Of a DNA stretch of 64,000 bases, positions 185 to 52,556 are shown piece after piece; the stretch's first letter is position 1; each line of letters begins with the position of its first letter. A program made the position numbers and the translations under genes. This stretch comes from Octopus vulgaris (taxonomy: Eukaryota). The notes under the pieces were generated by a model. That model was not told where the DNA came from. It was given only the letters and a program-made list of their open reading frames with translations, and made no database searches. Where the stretch lies: contig OX597837.1 in the NCBI GenBank assembly GCA_951406725.2, positions 30,380,001 through 30,444,000 of the forward strand. The letters are read 5' to 3'.

Positions 185-402
185 CCCTTTAACATTTAAA
201 CCGGCCATATCCGGCCAAAAGTATTCTGCCTGTTTTATGTCCAAACTGGACAGAACTGGTCTCTCACACCAACCCTACAATATTATTTTAAAAATTAACA
301 GCTACCTCATCAAAATCTCATAGCTACAAGATAATGCATGATTAGTTCAAAACAATGTGGATGAAGAAGCATTAACTTTGGCAGAATAATGCAAACAAAG
401 GT
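185..402. mobile_element. piggyBac-like MITE, degenerate right end
   Basis: Starts TTAA|CCCTTTAACATTTA; the body is the reverse-orientation relative of the TTAA-flanked element at 60276-60494. Confidence 0.55.
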
Positions 403-899
403 TATAGGAACATAAATCTTCTTTGACGAAAAGATAGCTGAAACTGTGCTCTAAATGGAGGTGTAGTCAAATCCTATTTTATGGACTCAAACATGTTTCA
501 AAAAATAAGTCAAAAGGTAAGCTGCTATAAATCAGTACGAACTTTCCGGACAACCCTATACTATCAGTCTCAGCAAGGCATCGCTACTGTACAACTGAAC
601 ATGTTAAAGCTCATGAAACTACAATGTGATGGGTGTAATGTATAGATGCTTATATAGTCTTAGATCTCTTTCATTAATGATAAATAATTGTTCTACATGA
701 AGCTTGTTTCCATTGCAATAATGATGATTATGAAACTGTTAACATATTGCATAGTTATTTATTAGATGGTAATCTGAAATATTGAATATATGAAATACCT
801 CAGGAGGTGCTCTTTTCTTTGAATAGTCTTCTGTAGATATTGAACCTATATTAAAATATATCCTTCTCACTGTCTGCTTTCTCTCTTCTTATCTTTCAG

Positions 900-947
900 T
901 TCAACATGCTGTGTTATACCTAAAAACAGAGGGTTATACACATCCAG
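900..947 (+). CDS. TNF-like gene copy A, exon 3 (48 nt)
   Basis: ctttcag|TTCAACAT...CATCCAG|gtaagc; encodes QHAVLYLKTEGYTHP; same length and phase as the exons at 25390-25437 and 52509-52556; splices in frame to 3475. Confidence 0.85.
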
Positions 948-1718
948 GTAAGCTAATTTATACAGATTTATTGCACACTTTTTCTCATAATTTGAATTAC
1001 TCCCTTACATAACTGATAATAACTACTTTATATAAACACCTATGTCGCTATATACATTTTAGAATCAATTAGGTGTAATGAAATCATTAAATATTTCATT
1101 AACAGTTATAGTAATAGTCTTTGGCTATTACAAACTATTAATACAATTAGTGGGTGAGTAAAGAATGTCCCCATATTATTTTAACAAACGAATATGCATC
1201 TGGGTAAAATAAATGAGTTGACTGGAAATGCTGGGAAAGTGGGGGTTGTTCCCATTTGCCATTACACTGTTCCATGTCATATCCCATTTCCTGTTCATTT
1301 CTTGTTCATTTCCTGTCTTTATATCCATCTTGTCATTTATGTAAAAAGGTTATTGCAAAAAATAGGTATTACAAACTATTAATTCGATCAGTGGGTAAAT
1401 AAGGAACATCTCTATACTATTTTAATGAATGATTGTGCATCTGAGTAAAATTCACTAACATAAGTCACCCTCTCTCTGTTAGTACCTTTCTCTCTGTTAC
1501 TACCTTAGACATACGTTTTGCAACCTTCTCATTTTATCTCATAATTCACCCAGTGCTCCAGGGGTGCAAATTACAGATTTGTATTGAAATCTAATTATCC
1601 TATTATTGAACTGGATGTTAGTGTAACATGTATGCAAAGTTTCATGAATATTGGTCAATGGTTTAGGTACTAAGATGGTAACAGATGGACAGGCAGAAAT
1701 TGTCATATACATACATAT

Positions 1719-3474: not shown

Positions 3475-3863
3475 ATAAGGAAATAAGGTTACAATGGAAG
3501 AAAGATGAGAAGCAGAGTGTAGGCAACATTCAACTGGTCAATGAAACTCTCATATATATTCCACAGGATGGGGTATACCAAATAAACAGTGCTGTGCAAT
3601 TGCACTTTAAAAAAAATGATTCTGCAGCAATTGTAACCATGTTATATAGGAAAAAGAATGGGGCACCAGACGAATATTTTATAAAAAGGAAAAAATCCCT
3701 ACACAATGTATCAGAACATGCTGTAATACAAACATCATTTACACACCAATTTAAAGCAAATGATTCAATGTATTTGATGATGAACAAGGCAAGATTCATC
3801 AGCTCCGATAAATACTCAAGCTATTTCACTATCACCAGTTCCAATACAAATGATCCTCAGTAA
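3475..3863 (+). CDS. TNF-like gene copy A, terminal exon (TNF homology-like domain)
   Basis: tttcag|AT; DKEIRLQWKKDEKQSVGNIQLVNETLIYIPQDGVYQINSAVQLHF...FKANDSMYLMM...SSYFTITS; matches the THD pattern L-x-W ... I-x-x-x-G-x-Y-x-I-x-S-x-V-x-(F/L). Confidence 0.85.
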
Positions 3864-9077: not shown

Positions 9078-10235
9078 GATTGATTGATTGATTCTAGTTT
9101 CAGCTTATGAGCTGCGGCCATGCTGGGGCACCGCCATTTGATGTTGCTATTTGGTTTCACTTCACGAAAGCTTTCTAGCAACTGCCATTTGGTGCATGAG
9201 AGAGTTCGTTGCAGCTGCCCTCATCTGCCCCTCCTGCAGTTCATCTGGGACACCTGACAGGAAGAGATCAAGCTTCATTTTAAAGACATCCGCATCCACC
9301 CCATGCAGGTCTCTCAGGTTCTTCGGGAGGATATTGAAGAGTTGTGGGCCTCGGAAGCCCAGGCTATCACAGAATCTTGTCCTACATCTTGATGGCAGGT
9401 TTGGAGTCCTAGGCACCACGCAGTGGCGCCCAGTTCTGGCATTTGCGTAACTCTCGATGCCAAAGTTCAGGACACGTCCCTCCAGGATCTTCCAGATGTA
9501 TATTATGGCATATCTTTCCCGCCTACGCTCCAGGGAATATAGTTTTAATCTCTTGAGTCTTTCCCAGTAGCTTACATTCTGCATAGAGGCTATCTTCTTC
9601 GTGTAGCTACGTTGGATCGCCTCGAGCTCTGTGATCAACTTGACACTGGATGGTGACCATAACTGAGAGCAGTAGTCAAAGTGGCTTAGGACAAGTGTCC
9701 TCCAGAGGACCATCATGGTTTCTTGTTCTCTTGTTCTAAAGGTTCTGAGGATCCATCCGGCCAGTCGTCTACATTTCATTGCCAATTTAGCAACATGTAC
9801 ACGAAAGGTCGCGTCATCACTCATGTAAATACCTAGGTCACGCACTGATTGTGCCTCCGGGTCCAGTGTATTCATTGGGTATTGCATTTAGTTTTGCATG
9901 CTGATAGTATAGAGCTTGAAACTTTTCAGCATTGAACTGCATGCTATTCTTTTAGGCCCACTTGTATATTTTGTCCTGCTCACATTGCAGGTGTTTAGTG
10001 TCCTCAGGGTTCTGTATTGCCTGTGAAACTTTTGTATCACCTGCATAACTTGTGATCGTGGCTCTCTGCGTGGCTGAGGGCATGTCTGAGAGGGCCATTA
10101 TGAACAGTAGTGGTCCCAGAACAGTGCCCTGCGGAACACCGCTCACTATTTGCGTGTTAATGGAAGTGGCCCCATTGGCTGCTACCACCTGACTTCTATC
10201 TTTCAGAAAGTCATGAAGCCATTCTCCCAGTTTTC
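9078..10235 (-). mobile_element. 5'-truncated CR1-type LINE
   Basis: RT motifs GVPQGTVLGPLLF and YAGDTK plus C-terminal LYSLERRRER; near-identical to 36240-37407 apart from small indels; (AATC)n tail; embedded in TA runs. Confidence 0.92.
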
Positions 10236-27400: not shown

Positions 27401-27792
27401 AGAATTTAAAGTGGAAGGAAGATGATGACCAGCAAATAGGTGATATTAAATTGCTGAAGAAAACTCACATCCTTATATCGCAAGATGGGTTTTACCATAT
27501 AAATTGTATAGTGCAATTGAGGGTTAATAAAAATATTTCACAATATATCATATTGAAGGCTCATATTAAGAAAAATGGGGGAAAAGATCATATATTAACG
27601 CAGAAAAGTACCCATTCCTTAAAAATAACAGAATATTTCACAATGTACTTACCATTTACAGCCAAACTTCAAACTAATGACACAATCTATTTTGAGATGC
27701 AAGGGGCAGAATTCATAATCAAGGATGATAAAAGAAGCTACTTGTACATCTACAGCTTCTATTTAGATAATCCTCCGAAACATAAGCCTTAA
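27401..27792 (+). CDS. TNF-like gene copy B, terminal THD exon
   Basis: ttttag|AG; ENLKWKEDDDQQIGDIKLLKKTHILISQDGFYHINCIVQL..LQTNDTIYFEM..; exons 288+43+48+392 nt give an uninterrupted 256 aa protein. Confidence 0.85.
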
Positions 27793-36307: not shown

Positions 36308-39303
36308 TCATGAAGGCTTTCTAGCAGCTGCTATTTGGTGCATAAGAGAGTTCGATGCAGCTGCCCTCATCTGCCCCTCCTGCCGTGAAGTTGGTTCATC
36401 TGGGACACCTGACAGGAAGAGATCCAGCTTCATTTTAAAGACATCTGTATCCACCCCATGCAGGTCTCTCAGGTTCTTCGGGAGGATATTGAAGAGCTGT
36501 GGGCCTCGGAAGCCCAGGCTATCACAGAATCTTGTCCTACATCTTGATGGCAAGTTTGGAGTCCTAGGCACCACGCAGTGGCGCCCAGTTCTGGCATTTG
36601 CGTAACTCTCGATGCCAAAGTTCAGGACACTTCCCTCCAGGATCTTCCAGATGTATATTATGGCATATCTTTCCCGCCTACGCTCCAGGGAATATAATTT
36701 TAATTTCCTGAGTCTTTCCCAGTAGCTTACATTCTGCATAGAGGCTATCTTCTTCGTGTAGCTTCGTTGGATCGCCTCGAGCTCTGTGATCAACTTGACA
36801 CTGGATGGTGACCATAACTGAGAGCAGTAGTCAAAGTGGCTTAGGACAAGTGTCCTCCAGAGGACCATCATGGTTTCTTGTTCTCTTGTTCTAAAGGTTC
36901 TGAGGATCCATCCGGCCAGTCGTCTACATTTCATTGCCAATTTAGCAACATGTACACGAAAGGTCGCGTCATCACTCATGTAAATACCTAGGTCACGCAC
37001 TGATTGTGCCTCTGGGATTGCTATTCCTCCGGGTCCAGTGTATTCATTGGGTATTGCATTTAGTTTTGCATGCTGATAGTATAGAGCTTGAAACTTTTCA
37101 GCATTGAACTGCATGCTATTCTTTTCGGCCCACTTGTATATTTTGTCTACCTCACATTGCAGGTGTTTAGTGTCCTCAGGGTTCTGTATTGCCTGTGAAA
37201 CTTTTGTATCATCTGCATAACTTGTGATCGTGGCTATCTGCGTGGCTGAGGGCATGTATGAGAGGGCCATTATGAACAGTAGTGGTCCCAGAACAGTGCC
37301 CTGCGGAACACCGCTCACTATTTGCGTGTTAATGGAAGTGGCCCCATTGGCCACTACCACCTGACTTCTATCTTTCAGAAAGTCATGAAGCCATTCTCCC
37401 AGTTTTCCAACTATGTTGAGATCACGCAGTTTGTTACATATCATTCCATGATCGACTTTATCAAAGGCCTTTGCAAAGTCGAGATATATCACTTCCACAT
37501 TTGAGTGGTTGAGCAGCCGTTTCAGCACCCAGTCATAGTGTTGTAGGAGCTGAGTTAAACAGCTTCTCCCTGGTCGGAAACCATGTTGGGTGTCGGGCAG
37601 CAAGTCATTTTCTTCAAGGAAGGTGATCAGCTTCCTTCTGACTATTCGTTCCATGTCCTTGCTGATGTGTGAGGTCAGAGAGATAGGTCTGTAGTTCTTG
37701 GCTTCCGCTCTGCTACCTCCTTTATGAATGGGGCATATTTTACCTTCCTTCAGTTTTCTTGGAAGTTTGCCAGCTGCAAGGAAGCTCTGAAAGAGGAACT
37801 GCAGTGGTCTTGCTAGGACTCTCTTACATGCTTTTAGGAGGATTGCCGGGAATCCATCGGGGCCAGTAGCTGAGTCTGTTTTCATTTCATCTATAGCCTT
37901 GATTACATCGTCTTCCTTTATATCGATGTAATCTATCGTCGCCGCCTCTGATTTTATATCTGCAGTGGTAAAAAAGTCAGTTGGATTGGTGATTTGAAGA
38001 TGCCCAAGGGGTGGAGTGAAAACACTCTTGAATTGCTCATTCAGTATTTCACTTACCCTCATTGGTTTTCCTGTAAGTGTGCCATCCTTTTCGAGGAGTG
38101 GCCCTATTCTACAGTGCACCGTAGCTGTTTCTTTGGCATACCTGTAGAAAGCTCTGGGGTTAGATTTTATGTTGTCTATAGCCCAGGCTTCTTTGTCTGC
38201 TCTTTCCTTTTCATGGGAGAGTTTCAGACATTTTTCGATTTCCAACAGTTTTATTTTTAGGCGGGACTTTTCATTGCTTTCAAACTGTTTGTTTAGGCGA
38301 TTTGAAAATTTTGTACGCCGTCTCATTAGAATTTTCCTCTCTCTGGGGATTTTGTTCTTGTGTACAGTGGCCTTTCTCTCTGGGACATATTTGTAGCATA
38401 TGGCTTGCATTACAGACATGAATTGTTGAAGTTTCACGTCGATGTCTGGCGAGGAGAGACATTTAGGCCAGTTTTGTTTGAGGATCTCTTTCTCAATTTG
38501 TTTCCAGTTTGCCTTATGGTAGTTCAAGCTGGAAAGATTCTGGGGTTTCTTGTAGGCTGCATGTCCGTGCTCTCTTTTGGCCCGTACATGGTCAGCTCTA
38601 TCATGTTGTGATCCGAGAGTAGTGTCGGTGTCACTTTCACATTATGGATGAGATCCATGTCATTTGTGAAGCAGAGATCTAGTGTGTTACCTGCCCTGGT
38701 TGGTTGGAGTATTACCTGCGCCATGTACAGGGTGTTGATGAGGTTCAGGAGGGACCTCGCCTGTCCTCGTTCACATCTTGTCATTCCTGGGAGAGAAAGG
38801 CCCTCGGGCCATCTAACATTTGGCAGATTGAAGTCTCCCATAAGAAGTACACTTATGTGTTGTTCTAATGTGGTTAGAACTTCTTCTATTTTTATAAGGC
38901 AGTCTTCAAACTTGCCCACATGGCTTGGGGCATCTGGAGGGCGATATGTAGCACACACAACTACATCAAGTTGCCTAATATGTACAATTAGTGTGTCACA
39001 CACCGAGTTTGAGTATGACAAGAGGACCTGGGGTGTGAGGTCCTCACGGATGTACATAGCAACACCTCCATGACTCCTTTCTTTCCTGTCGGTCCGTAGT
39101 ACAGCATACTGTGGTATGTGTAACTCCGCATCTGCTATGTCCGGTTTCAGGTGCGTTTCCGTTAGTGCTATGCATAAGGCTTGATTGCATGCAACAAAAT
39201 CTCTCAGGAACGGGATTTTTGTCCTGTTACTGAGTGTTTGCAGTCCTCTGATGTTCAGTAGGAGCATCGAGGTGAGGTGTACGTTGTTGCCGGTGGTGTC
39301 CAT
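36308..39303 (-). CDS. LINE ORF2 (APE endonuclease + reverse transcriptase), one frameshift near 38546
   Basis: EN motifs NIRGL, LTETHL, YRPP, GDFN, LDL, SDH; RT motifs YRPISLTS, QHGFR, LDFAKAFDKV, GVPQGTVLGP, YADD. Confidence 0.92.
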
Positions 39304-40139
39304 CCTGGGTCTGTTTGCTGTGGTGGTGGTCTGGTATATAGTGGGTAGTCCCACCTGCGGGCTTGGGTTTGATGAAGCCAGGTCAGCTGCTGTACAATCT
39401 TTTGTGCCATGCACAAAAAAGATTGTTGCTCAGCAGCTGCCCTTTCGACAACATCATGTTGGTGGTTTGTGGCACGCACAACATCTGCGTACCTCCGCTT
39501 TGGGGCAAGTGGTGCGTGGTCCATCCCTTTTCCTTGTGTTGATGGTTTGTCCATCTGCCTCGTGTCTCTGTGGCAGGGTCCCCGATGTGCAAAGCGGCAG
39601 CCTGCACCTTCCTTTCCATGCCAGCAGGAACCTCTCAGGTAGAACCTACACACCTGTGTGCGCTGTCCGTTTCCATCTTTTGCGGTTCCACTTCTATTCC
39701 TGGTTTTTTCACCCTTTGGTCCTGCTTGAGCTTTTCCTTTAGCTCTACCAGCCCTTCTTTTAGTTCTTCCTCCTCCCTCTACCTCTTCACCGGGTTCTCC
39801 GTATCCATGGCCTTTGCTGCCGGTTGGAGAACTTGCACCTGGGTTCACTTCCCGGGCAGGTTTCTCATTCAAAACCTCCTCCCGGGCATCCACCAGGTGG
39901 GGGTGACTTCTTTCATCGTTTCCATTCTTGTCATCTTTGCCTCGCTCGTTCTCAAAGATGGCATCAAGTGCGCCAATGTGCGACCGTACAAGCGCATATG
40001 AGCGCACGAATTCCCGTCTCTTTCGCTCCATCTGAGCCGCTGTCCTCTTGTAGCCTCTGCTCTTCAGCGCAGCCGCAATCACCTCGCTAGGGCTATCTCC
40101 GCTATCTCCCATGCTTGTACGAATAAAACCATCTCCCAT
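39255..40139 (-). CDS. LINE ORF1 with a CCCH-type zinc finger
   Basis: 294 aa ORF directly upstream of and overlapping ORF2; CRFYLRGSCWHGKEGAGCRFAH. Confidence 0.75.
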   Translation of the reverse strand: MGDGFIRTSMGDSGDSPSEVIAAALKSRGYKRTAAQMERKRREFVRSYALVRSHIGALDAIFENERGKDDKNGNDERSHPHLVDAREEVLNEKPAREVNPGASSPTGSKGHGYGEPGEEVEGGGRTKRRAGRAKGKAQAGPKGEKTRNRSGTAKDGNGQRTQVCRFYLRGSCWHGKEGAGCRFAHRGPCHRDTRQMDKPSTQGKGMDHAPLAPKRRYADVVRATNHQHDVVERAAAEQQSFLCMAQKIVQQLTWLHQTQARRWDYPLYTRPPPQQTDPGWTPPATTYTSPRCSY

Positions 40140-40249
40140 GCTTGTACGAATAAACCAGCTCGTCAGGTCTCCATGCTCTGGACATGCTGGATGATCTGTC
40201 TATTTGTTTATCTATTTAACTATGTTCGAGAGAAGACAAGAAGATATTT

Positions 40250-45236: not shown

Positions 45237-45915
45237 CATGCAATCCCTGAGTCAAAATCAGTGCGTGACATGAGCAATGATGCATCTTTCCAAGTGCATA
45301 TTACTAATCTGGTGATAAAATGCAGACGGCTAGCTGGATGGATTCTCCGAACTTTCAGAACAAGAGAGAAGGGGACACTGATGGTCCTCTGGAAAACATT
45401 CGTCCTCAGCCGCTTGGACTACTGCTCCCAACTGTGGTCACCACACAATATAAAACTACAGCAGAACTCGAAGCAATTCAGAGAAGCTACACAAAATATC
45501 AGCTACTGGGAAAGACTGAAAGTATTAAACCTCTTCTCCCTAGAGCGGAGGCGGGAGAGATATGCGGTGATATACATCTGGAAAATCCTGGAGGGTCTTG
45601 TCCCAAACTTTGGCATTCAAAGTTACCCCAACCGCAGAGCGGGGCGCCACTGCATGGTGCTAAAGATTCCAACATCACCATCAAAATACAGGACCGGATA
45701 CTGTAACAGCTTGGGTTCAGAGGACCACAGCTCTTTAACATCCTCCCTAAATGTCTGAGAGACTTGCATGGTGTGGATGTGGGTTTCTTTAAAACTAAAC
45801 TGGATCTCTTCTTGTCGGGAGTCCCAGATGAATCTACCTCACGACAGGAGACGCGGATGCGGGCAGCAGCATCGAACTCCCTTGTTGATCAAGTGCCACG
45901 TATCAGAGGTGGATT
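45237..45915 (+). mobile_element. Older CR1-type LINE 3' fragment
   Basis: AIPESKSVRD..CRRLAGWILRTF..LDYCSQLWSP..LFSLERRRERY, with frameshifts; a diverged relative of the 36 kb LINE. Confidence 0.88.
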
Positions 45916-46907: not shown

Positions 46908-48242
46908 ATGCCCACACCAGACGATTATCATAAGAATGGTGGCTCAAAATGGAACGGCCACAACAGTCAATATTTAGAAGACCAACCGAAAGAAAAGGAC
47001 GAAACTACACAAGACAACGATAGCGACATGGATGAAATGGCCACGGAATCGACATCGTTGTTGCCTAATCAAAACCCCGATCAAGATAGAAGGGATGAAC
47101 CACTTCATTCTAATGAAGAAATTGATAAAGTCAGTCTATCTGCTGGTACACAAGAAACCGATCGAGTCGAGGCAATTGCGGATACGCAATTAACTAGTGA
47201 AGATGAGAACCCTGGTTCACCGTCGTTTACTGAAACAACCAGGGCAAATAGGAGACCTGCTGGTAGAAACACGACCCCTCAAAGTGGGATCTCTCTGGCT
47301 ACTCAAACGACTGAGGAACCTTTAGTTGCTGAAACAACCAGGGCAAATAGGAGACCTGCTGGTAGAGACACGACTCCTCAAAGTGGGATCTCTCTGGCTA
47401 CTCAAACGACTGAGGAACCTTTAGTTGCTGAAACAACCAGGGCAAATAGGAGACCTGCTGGTAGAGACACGACTCCTCAAAGTGGGATCTCTCTGGCTAC
47501 TCAAACGACCGAGGAAGATAGATCCGCGGAACCTTTGGTTACTGAAACAACCGAGGCAAATAGGAAACCTGCTGGTAGAGAAACGACTCCTCAAAGTGGG
47601 ATCTCTCTGGCTACTCAAATGACCGAGGAAGATAGATCCGCGGAACGTTTGGTTACTGAAACAACCGAGGCAAATAGGAGACCTGCTGGTAGAGAAACGA
47701 CTCCTCCAAGTGGGATCTCTCTGGCTACTCAAACGACCGAGGAAGATAGATCCGCGGAACGTTTGGTTACTGAAACAACCGAGGCAAATAGGAGACCTGC
47801 TGGTAGAGAAACGACTCCTCCAAGTGGGATCTCTCTGGCTACTCAAACGACCGAGGAAGATAGATCCGCGGAGCGTTTGGTTACTGAAACAACCGAGGCA
47901 AATAGGAGACCTGCTGGTAGAGAAACGACTCCTCCAAGTGGGATCTCTCTGTCTACTCAAACGACTGAGGAAACTTTGGATTCTGAAACAACCAGGGAAA
48001 ACGTTGAAGAAAGGACATGTCCTACAATAGCAGCAAGTGGTCAAAATGGGATCTCTGCGGATCGTCCATTGACTTGTGTACAAATACCAGATGGAAATGG
48101 GACCTCCGAGAATAGTCCAGTGACAGGTGCAGGAAGGAGACCATGCACAGTACCACCATTGTGTACACGTGATAAATGGAAAATCTTGGTTTTTATTGTC
48201 GTGGTTATAGTAATAGCAATTATTATTGCTGTTATCATTAAG
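46908..48242 (+). CDS. TNF-like gene copy D, exon 1 (445 codons; repeat-expanded tail + TM)
   Basis: Open from the ATG; TM ILVFIVVVIVIAIIIAVII; ends ATTAAG|gtattt. Confidence 0.88.
47232..47984 (+). repeat. In-frame coding tandem repeat, 7 units (99, 99, 114, 114, 114, 114, 99 bp)
   Basis: GAAACAACC unit starts at 47232, 47331, 47430, 47544, 47658, 47772, 47886 and 47985. Confidence 0.95.
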
Positions 48243-51898: not shown

Positions 51899-51917
51899 GT
51901 GTACAAGCGGTCACCTC
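51899..51917 (+). CDS. TNF-like gene copy D, exon 2 (19 nt micro-exon)
   Basis: Long pyrimidine tract, ttcag|GTGTACAAGCGGTCACCTC|gtaagt; VYKRSP; phase 0 to 1 as required; followed by the family-conserved intron 2. Confidence 0.78.
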
Positions 51918-52508
51918 GTAAGTTATTATCAGTATTTACTTTTCATGTGTCAATAAAATCACTAAACATGTCCTCAATACATTACAGTCTTAAAATAGGC
52001 AACAATTTTTTAACATGAAAAGGAACAGACATACTAAAGAAACAACTGGAAAAATAACCACATCGTTAAATATGTGAATGATGTGTCTAGGATAATTAAC
52101 TGGACTTTAGATGACACTTTGATAGGATGAAGCCTCCTGTACATGTTTACTAGAATTGTACTATCAGTCTCAGCAAGGCATTGCTACTGTACAACTGAAC
52201 ATGTTAAAGCTCATGAAACTACAATGTGATGGGTGTAATATATAGATATTTATATAGTCTTGGCTCTCTTTCATTAATGGTTAATAATTTGTCCTCCATG
52301 TAGAAAATTTTCGTTATGATAATAATAATTGTGAAACAGTTAATATGTGGTATAGCTATTTATTAGGTGAGAATCTGAAGTATTTAATATCTGAAATATA
52401 TCAAGAAGTGTCCTTTTCTTCTGCCTTAGTCTTCAGCCAGATATTGAACCTGTATTCAAATATGTATTCCTCCCATTGTCTGATTTCTCTCTGTTTCTTA
52501 TTTTTCAG

Positions 52509-52556
52509 TTCACCATGCCCTTTTCCATTTAGAAACAAGTGGTTACACAGATTCAG
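52509..52556 (+). CDS. TNF-like gene copy D, exon 3 (48 nt)
   Basis: tttcag|TTCACCAT..GATTCAG|gtaagg; (L)HHALFHLETSGYTDS. Confidence 0.85.

What the first reader, a model, noticed from the sequence alone, without database searches (positions are those of the whole stretch)
811..999. Exon 3 is far more diverged than its flanking intron (copy A vs B)
Counted by hand: the 89 nt before exon 3 (811-899 vs 25301-25389) differ at 1 position and the 52 nt after it (948-999 vs 25438-25489) differ at 2. The 48 nt exon between them differs at 15 positions and changes 8 of 15 complete codons' residues. This inverted pattern is known from toxin and immune gene families under diversifying selection. Inference: strong selection on the first THD strand and loop (receptor or pathogen contact), and/or gene conversion that homogenises introns but is purged in exons.
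Basis: partly seen in the sequence, partly recalled or inferred. Interest (0 to 1): 0.82.

Follow-up and report, generated by a model that had tools for sequence, protein, structure and literature searches.

The report
Octopus TNF genes share intron patches
Two long-diverged octopus TNF-like genes have almost identical intron DNA on both sides of a 48-base exon that is no more changed than the rest of their coding sequence, likely because short DNA patches were copied between the genes and stopped at the exon, which is a known process and not a sign of special selection on this exon.

Summary
The counts are exact: 1/89, 15/48, 2/52 differences and 8/15 residues. The window holds four tandem TNF-ligand-like genes of an Octopus family with about ten or more members. 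The exon is not the anomaly. Exon 3 A/B has dN/dS about 0.35 and 67% nucleotide identity, against 59% for exon 4; across 14 family members it is better conserved than exon 4 (57% vs 46% amino acids). The anomaly is the intron. A is a patchwork, C-like at 559-650 and B-like at 811-999 (scan P 0.0001-0.002), while other introns and 3' UTRs of A and B are far apart or unalignable. A's upstream flank and exon are confirmed in an independent run; the flank is low-copy. Best reading: short-tract gene conversion in a surviving homologous intron block, excluded from an old, diverged exon, as in primate opsins. Purifying constraint on the flank remains a rival. Copy B's flank and cross-species turnover were not checked. 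Unchecked scan notes report similar exon-versus-intron patterns in other families of this genome, none for this family. Known mechanism, new instance.

The parts
400..560 (.). High-copy dispersed repeat that cuts copy A's homology upstream
   Evidence: Summed contig depth 1e4-4e5 in three large runs against 1e1-1e3 downstream of 572; many loose ends at 560
559..660 (+). Copy A intron 2 block, C-like patch; holds a 36-nt core (604-639) invariant in A, B, C, D
   Evidence: A-C 2/87 differences, other pairs 8-11%; scan P 0.00025; core at 604, 25094, 52204, 63865
761..899 (+). Copy A upstream flank, B-like patch (identical run 836-903)
   Evidence: A-B 6/139 differences, A-C 26/139, site patterns AB|C 23 vs 3 vs 2; X4 contig 795-903 with 0 other letters
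900..947 (+). Copy A exon 3: THD strand A and start of the following loop
   Evidence: AG/GT, phase 1-1; spliced to exon 4 in an X4 contig; strand 83-88 in the model of relative P0001
948..1023 (+). Copy A downstream flank (identical to B over 954-999; homology ends near 1023)
3475..3863 (+). Copy A exon 4, bulk of the TNF domain
   Evidence: Pfam PF00229 27.7 bits, cut-off 23
12911..13198 (+). Copy B exon 1 (cytoplasmic part and hydrophobic segment)
   Evidence: translation, GT donor
22599..22641 (+). Copy B exon 2 (43 nt stalk)
24952..25389 (+). Copy B intron 2 homologous block
   Evidence: matches A, C, D
25390..25437 (+). Copy B exon 3
25438..25551 (+). Copy B downstream flank
27401..27792 (+). 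Copy B exon 4
   Evidence: Pfam PF00229 26.0 bits; groups with O. bimaculoides LOC106880432, 99/99
46908..48242 (+). Copy C exon 1 (internal tandem repeat, hydrophobic segment)
51899..51917 (+). Copy C exon 2 (19 nt)
51918..52508 (+). Copy C intron 2, compact 591-nt form of the block that is broken by insertions in A, B and D
   Evidence: pieces map on A, B, D
52509..52556 (+). Copy C exon 3
54856..55235 (+). Copy C exon 4
   Evidence: open frame through four exons; 44-45% aa identity to A and B; no Pfam hit on its own
61019..61492 (+). Copy D exon 1
   Evidence: exons 1+2 are 171/172 identical to O. sinensis LOC115224014 X1
62704..62746 (+). Copy D exon 2
63715..63905 (+). Copy D intron 2 block (gene runs off the window)
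   Evidence: B-D 14/184 differences

Best explanation
A and B are old tandem TNF-ligand-like paralogues whose exon 3 keeps the same deep divergence as exon 4, while the intron DNA right beside it is nearly identical, likely because short gene-conversion tracts copied the one surviving homologous intron block between copies and were likely stopped or purged at the exon. Shown: the gene models, the old divergence of exons 3 and 4, the patchwork in which A's closest partner switches from C to B, and the lack of such similarity at other exons. Inferred: that conversion made the patchwork, and that either selection against overwriting each paralogue's residues or the 17 clustered mismatches at 904-953 themselves keep tracts out of the exon; these two barriers cannot be told apart here. 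Mild purifying constraint on the block probably helped it stay alignable.
For: (1) Exon 3 is equidistant among A, B, C (15, 15, 17 of 48) with star-like site patterns (AB|C 6, AC|B 6, BC|A 4); the flank 761-899 gives 23 vs 3 vs 2; flank vs exon 3 P = 0.003, flank vs exon 4 P = 8e-10. (2) The drop is specific to A-B: 3/141 in the flank vs 48/275 in the rest of the block (P = 1e-6), while A-C (20/138 vs 50/275) and B-C (22/138 vs 56/275) do not change. (3) A second low-divergence patch joins A to C at 559-650 (scan P 0.00025); a GENECONV-like permutation gives an A-B tract 810-893, P = 0.0005-0.0015 with a mismatch penalty. (4) A-B is the most distant pair in exon 4 (36% aa), its 3' UTR and exon-4 acceptor flank score at shuffled level, and B groups with an O. 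bimaculoides gene (99/99), so the duplication is far older than 2% divergence. (5) Three synonymous differences lie in the 7 unchanged codons of exon 3; at the flank's rate P = 0.0005-0.004, so the exon was not converted with the flank and then driven apart. (6) Same local pattern as L/M opsins (PMC3924837 passages; PMC3213168 abstract); clustered mismatches can block conversion (PMC3728101 Discussion part 1).
Against: The whole block is more conserved than synonymous sites in all three pairs (transitions 7-11% vs 24-37%, P 1e-6 to 0.01) and holds a 36-nt core invariant in four copies, which also fits constraint. Without a mismatch penalty the A-B run is not significant (P = 0.06-0.08), and the A-C patch is not significant in that test (P about 0.3). 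Contigs of other paralogues in runs X12 and X13 lay over 836-993 without gaps, so C's indels may be C's own, and no flank position at 836-899 or 948-999 is among the 40 best-supported difference rows (271 rows not shown), which gives no hint of species-wide turnover. Only three copies carry the exon in the window, so site patterns are unrooted. Tracts must reach within 7-8 nt of the exon on both sides (AB|C sites 893 and 955), which asks for repeated events.
Confidence: 0.62

Rival explanations
1. Purifying constraint: the flanks hold splicing or enhancer elements needed for a 48-nt exon; A and B keep the ancestral sequence and C has drifted.
For: Block 2-5 times less diverged than synonymous sites in all pairs; 36-nt invariant core; 954-999 also 90% in C; other paralogues in other runs keep at least about 85% flank identity by bounds (25-26 other letters over 836-993, 9 or more of them in the exon for the X12 contig).
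Against: C's distance in this flank equals its block average, so C is not specially relaxed; the closest pair switches from A-C to A-B within 150 nt. No RNA structure (z = +1.3; covariation term -1.7 kcal/mol) and no Rfam match above gathering score.
Confidence: 0.2
2. Cassette exchange: one conversion homogenised 761-999 including the exon, and exon 3 of A or B was later replaced from a third paralogue, the shared flanks acting as homology arms.
For: A's exon 3 is closest to O. sinensis LOC115224005 (11/15 aa) though exon 4 is only 43% identical to it; several paralogues share alignable flanks; the diverged patch is compact (904-953).
Against: 11/15 is modest against a family mean of 8.6/15 among 91 pairs; B shares its serine-bearing exon-3 start and 9/15 residues with its O. 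bimaculoides partner; 15 residues cannot carry a tree.
Confidence: 0.1
3. Diversifying selection on exon 3 after a recent duplication or conversion, as in venom-type accelerated evolution.
For: Exon 4 A-B and B-C have dN/dS 0.83-0.86, and B is only 58% identical to its O. bimaculoides partner, so the family evolves fast and some sites may be positively selected; pairwise averages can hide this.
Against: Exon 3 dN/dS 0.35-0.48, pS about 0.5; better conserved than exon 4 in 78 of 91 non-independent pairs; other introns and UTRs of A and B are not near-identical, unlike the snake SSP pairs with KA/KS 1.5-1.7 and intron KN 0.05-0.06 (PMC6609765 passages).
Confidence: 0.05
4. Assembly or polishing artefact, or a dispersed repeat, makes the flanks look alike.
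For: Copy B's flank and A's downstream flank were not confirmed in independent reads; no contig spans the whole stretch.
Against: An X4 contig matches A 795-903 with 0 other letters, carrying A-specific letters 799, 800, 809, 835 into the B-identical run; depth over the flank is 1e1-5e2, against 1e4-4e5 for the repeat at 400-560; A and B differ at fixed sites throughout the block.
Confidence: 0.03

Closest known systems
Primate L/M opsin genes: intronic gene conversion with a divergent exon 5 (Fawcett and Innan review PMC3924837, passages read; gibbon study PMC3213168, abstract read)
   Same: Tandem paralogues about 24 kb apart; introns closer than exons and than synonymous sites; exon between homogenised introns keeps old divergence.
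   Different: Opsins are young and homogenised over kilobases. Here the paralogues are 36% identical in protein, only a block of about 600 nt remains alignable, patches are about 50-150 nt, several partners take part, and no functional site in the exon is known.
Tigriopus GOT1 paralogues (PMC3728101, abstract and Discussion part 1 read)
   Same: Mosaic of converted and diverged stretches; selective and mismatch-barrier explanations both open.
   Different: There conversion is mostly exonic and introns are unalignable or absent; here it is the reverse.
Accelerated evolution of snake venom and small serum protein genes (PMC6609765, passages read)
   Same: Exons more diverged than neighbouring introns in a tandem family.
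   Different: Those pairs are recent, with KA/KS above 1 and low KN in introns overall; here dN/dS is below 1 and only one intron block is similar.
TNF superfamily ligands (Pfam PF00229); Octopus LOC106873363, LOC106880432, LOC115224014 and neighbours
   Same: Type II membrane layout, C-terminal THD, jelly-roll model matching TNF, RANKL, TL1A.
   Different: Octopus-specific expansion annotated only as uncharacterised or THD-containing; 12-20% identity to solved ligands; receptors unknown.

Membership tests
TNF superfamily ligand | C-terminal TNF homology domain | tested here: met
   PF00229 above cut-off for A and B exon 4, no hit for C alone; C aligns at 44-45% to A and B
TNF superfamily ligand | Jelly-roll fold of TNF type | tested here: met
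   Model of relative P0001 (pLDDT 81.5) matches TNF, RANKL, TL1A at E 6e-10 to 3e-9; A and B were not folded themselves
TNF superfamily ligand | Type II membrane segment before the THD | tested here: met
   Hydrophobic segment ends exon 1 of B, C, D, read by eye; helix 45-70 in the P0001 model; A's exon 1 lies outside the window
TNF superfamily ligand | Homotrimer that binds a TNF-receptor-family protein | not tested
   No receptor identified; no complex predicted
Opsin-type intronic conversion with a retained divergent exon | Intron closer between paralogues than synonymous sites of the exon | tested here: met
   3/141 vs pS 0.54; block transitions vs third positions P 1e-6
Opsin-type intronic conversion with a retained divergent exon | Statistically supported conversion tracts in the intron | tested here: met
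   Scan P 0.0001 (A-B) and 0.00025 (A-C); permutation P 0.0005-0.0015 with penalty, 0.06-0.08 without
Opsin-type intronic conversion with a retained divergent exon | Duplication older than the intron similarity | tested here: met
   B groups with an O. bimaculoides gene to the exclusion of A, 99/99; A-B 3' UTR unalignable
Opsin-type intronic conversion with a retained divergent exon | Introns cluster by species, exons by orthologue | not tested
   No genome held; no phased flank sequence of other species obtained
Opsin-type intronic conversion with a retained divergent exon | Selection, not only a mismatch barrier, keeps the exon apart | tested here: inconclusive
   Exon 3 divergence equals the gene's background, so a neutral barrier fits too
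Venom-type accelerated exon evolution | KA/KS above 1 in the exon | tested here: not met
   0.35, 0.48, 0.48
Venom-type accelerated exon evolution | All introns and UTRs near-identical (recent duplication) | tested here: not met
   A-B exon-4 acceptor flank and 3' UTR at shuffled level

The most novel reading that the evidence does not exclude
The conserved intron block is a recombination platform kept across ten or more octopus TNF paralogues, letting the 48-nt exon for strand A and its loop be swapped as a cassette between genes that are otherwise too diverged to recombine, so shuffling ligand surfaces; the same design may recur in other octopus recognition families.
Probability: 0.1. Interest if true: 0.68.

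Novelty: new member of a known kind. Interest (0 to 1): 0.33.

Why it matters
It is a clean warning case: an exon that looks hypervariable beside its introns can be an ordinarily diverged exon inside converted introns, so intron-based clocks and exon-versus-intron claims of positive selection fail here. It also shows exchange apparently persisting in a small intron island between paralogues only 36% identical in protein. The locus points to a fast-evolving Octopus TNF-ligand cluster for which four literature searches (listings only) showed no dedicated study.

Tried and rejected
No whole genome is held, so paralogues outside the window were reached only as proteins. Single-sequence homologue search with longer lengths: 0 of 60 candidates. 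Run search: no RNA holder on record; RNA labels are guesses. Contigs cannot be phased or ranked by depth; X4 has no cover at 959-1087 and X1 shows no contig with A's own exon-3 letters, neither of which proves anything. Rfam on 400-1200: 3 matches, all far below gathering score. RNA structure of the block: rejected. First fold with 6 sequences was unusable (pLDDT 50.7). Exon-4 protein tree is mostly unresolved, 1 of 14 inner branches starred. Reading 559-660 as a hidden exon: judged unlikely by eye (no pyrimidine tract, in-frame stop), not tested further. Searches for a paper on receptor contacts of the first THD loop gave nothing usable; passages of PMC6224509 name the DE and A'B' loops only. 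PMC4199593 passages mention no TNF ligand cluster. Scan notes by sequence: none for this family. P0003, P0004, P0014, P0018-P0022 were left out of the family identity count (fragments, duplicates or isoforms), and P0015-P0017 were left out as distant. No supplements were read.

Full report
Observation. The three counts reproduce exactly: 1 of 89, 15 of 48 and 2 of 52 differences. The exon lies between AG and GT in phase 1-1, and 8 of its 15 complete codons change residue. The contrast is far beyond chance (Fisher P = 8e-8; scan P = 0.0001 after allowing for the chosen window).

What the locus is. Masked self-comparison shows four tandem copies on the + strand. B and C give four-exon models: a cytoplasmic part with a hydrophobic segment, a short stalk exon, the 48-nt exon 3 and a last exon. 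A lacks exons 1-2 in the window and D lacks exons 3-4. Exon 4 of A and B passes the Pfam TNF cut-off (27.7 and 26.0 bits against 23); C alone gives no hit. A profile search of 1.84 billion representatives returned 17 proteins; all ten looked up are Octopus bimaculoides or O. sinensis genes labelled uncharacterised or THD-containing. D's first 172 residues match O. sinensis LOC115224014 at 171. A model of relative P0001 (pLDDT 81.5) places the exon-3 segment on a strand (83-88) and the loop after it, and matches TNF, RANKL and TL1A. That this loop touches the receptor in vertebrate ligands is recalled, not shown; the passages I read name other loops (PMC6224509).

Is it real DNA? In run X4 (RNA by guess) one contig crosses exon 3 with no listed other letter and continues into the start of exon 4; another matches 795-903 with 0 other letters, tying A-specific letters to the run that is identical to B. 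Depth over the flank is two to four orders of magnitude below that of the repeat at 400-560, so the flank is not a high-copy element. Copy B and A's downstream flank were not confirmed by reads.

The exon is not hypervariable. Nei-Gojobori counts for exon 3 give pS 0.54, pN 0.27, dN/dS 0.35 for A-B, and 0.48 for A-C and B-C. Exon 4 A-B is 59% identical in nucleotides and 36% in residues, against 67% and 47% for exon 3; the difference is not significant (P about 0.4), and 84% of 111 overlapping 15-codon windows of exon 4 differ as much or more. Across 14 family members exon 3 averages 57% identity and exon 4 46%, exon 3 being higher in 78 of 91 non-independent pairs. Three synonymous differences in the seven unchanged codons are too many for the flank's rate (P 0.0005-0.004). 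Exon 4 itself has dN/dS 0.83-0.86 in pairs with B, so the family is fast-evolving and site-level positive selection is not excluded anywhere.

The intron is the anomaly. Flanks of the other exons are 53-76% identical after global alignment, and the A-B 3' UTR and exon-4 acceptor flank score at or near shuffled level. By contrast a block of about 600 nt, compact in C and broken by insertions in A, B and D, aligns in all copies. Within it A is C-like at 559-650 (2/87 against 8-11% for other pairs) and B-like at 761-999 (site patterns 23 vs 3 vs 2 upstream). Both patches pass a scan test, B-C has none convincing, and the A-C and B-C distances in the A-B patch equal their block averages. A GENECONV-like permutation supports 810-893 with a mismatch penalty (P 0.0005-0.0015) but not without (0.06-0.08). 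By exon 4, B pairs with O. bimaculoides LOC106880432 (99/99; 58% identity, so orthology is likely but unproven), which makes the A-B split much older than 2% divergence.

Mechanism. Shown: old exon divergence, a patchwork intron, and patches that reach within 7-8 nt of the exon (sites 893 and 955). Inferred: short non-allelic conversion tracts copy the surviving homologous block between neighbours; tracts entering exon 3 are removed by selection or blocked by the 17 mismatches at 904-953. This is the pattern described for L/M opsins (PMC3924837 passages; PMC3213168 abstract), and both barriers are discussed for copepod GOT1 (PMC3728101 abstract and Discussion part 1). I give it 0.62.

Against it. 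The whole block is more conserved than synonymous sites in every pair and has a 36-nt core invariant in four copies, as constraint would give. Other paralogues in runs X12 and X13 lay over 836-993 without gaps, and none of the 40 displayed difference rows falls at 836-899 or 948-999 (271 rows hidden), so no species-wide turnover is visible. No RNA structure or Rfam family explains the block. Constraint alone gets 0.2. Cassette exchange of exon 3 gets 0.1: A's exon 3 is nearest to LOC115224005 (11/15) though exon 4 is not, a weak hint. Positive selection on exon 3 gets 0.05; the snake SSP cases differ in having KA/KS above 1 and low intron KN (PMC6609765 passages). Artefact gets 0.03.

Novelty. 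The mechanism is known. Four searches (listings only, plus passages of PMC4199593) showed no study of this cluster or its introns; subscription journals and supplements were not seen. Unchecked scan notes describe exon-over-intron divergence in LRR-GPCR, Ig-fold, mucin and PARP14 families of this genome and none for this family; they are leads only. Verdict: real, explained by a known process, moderately interesting for the age of the paralogues and the small patch size. Interest 0.33.

Noticed in passing
window 604-639, 25094-25129, 52204-52239, 63865-63900: A 36-nt intronic core is invariant in all four copies, inside a block about 90% conserved; candidate regulatory element, no Rfam match or structure.
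   Followed up: partly
window 46908-48242: Copy C exon 1 encodes a 445-residue cytoplasmic part with an internal tandem repeat of about 26-31 residues rich in Thr, Glu and Arg, far longer than in B or D.
   Followed up: no
window 27401-27792 and P0006: B and O. bimaculoides LOC106880432 share a 3-residue deletion at the start of exon 4 yet are only 58% identical; exon 4 dN/dS near 0.85 in pairs with B suggests fast evolution of this lineage.
   Followed up: partly
P0004 (O. bimaculoides LOC106872472 model XP_052832125.1): The gene model holds two THD starts in a row, either a fusion of neighbouring paralogues or an annotation read-through.
   Followed up: no
window 53680-54841: A 1.1-kb ATT-type trinucleotide array abuts the acceptor of copy C exon 4.
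   Followed up: no
window 36308-40199 (- strand), partial copies at 9096-10235 and 45240-45883: A near-complete LINE-like element with reverse-transcriptase-like and endonuclease-like frames (recognised by eye) lies between copies B and C.
   Followed up: no
window 900-947 in run X1: No X1 contig shows A's own exon-3 letters although A's intron 1196-1628 is present with 1 difference; only about 76% of the run was read, so this may be a hole, but a different exon-3 allele is possible.
   Followed up: no
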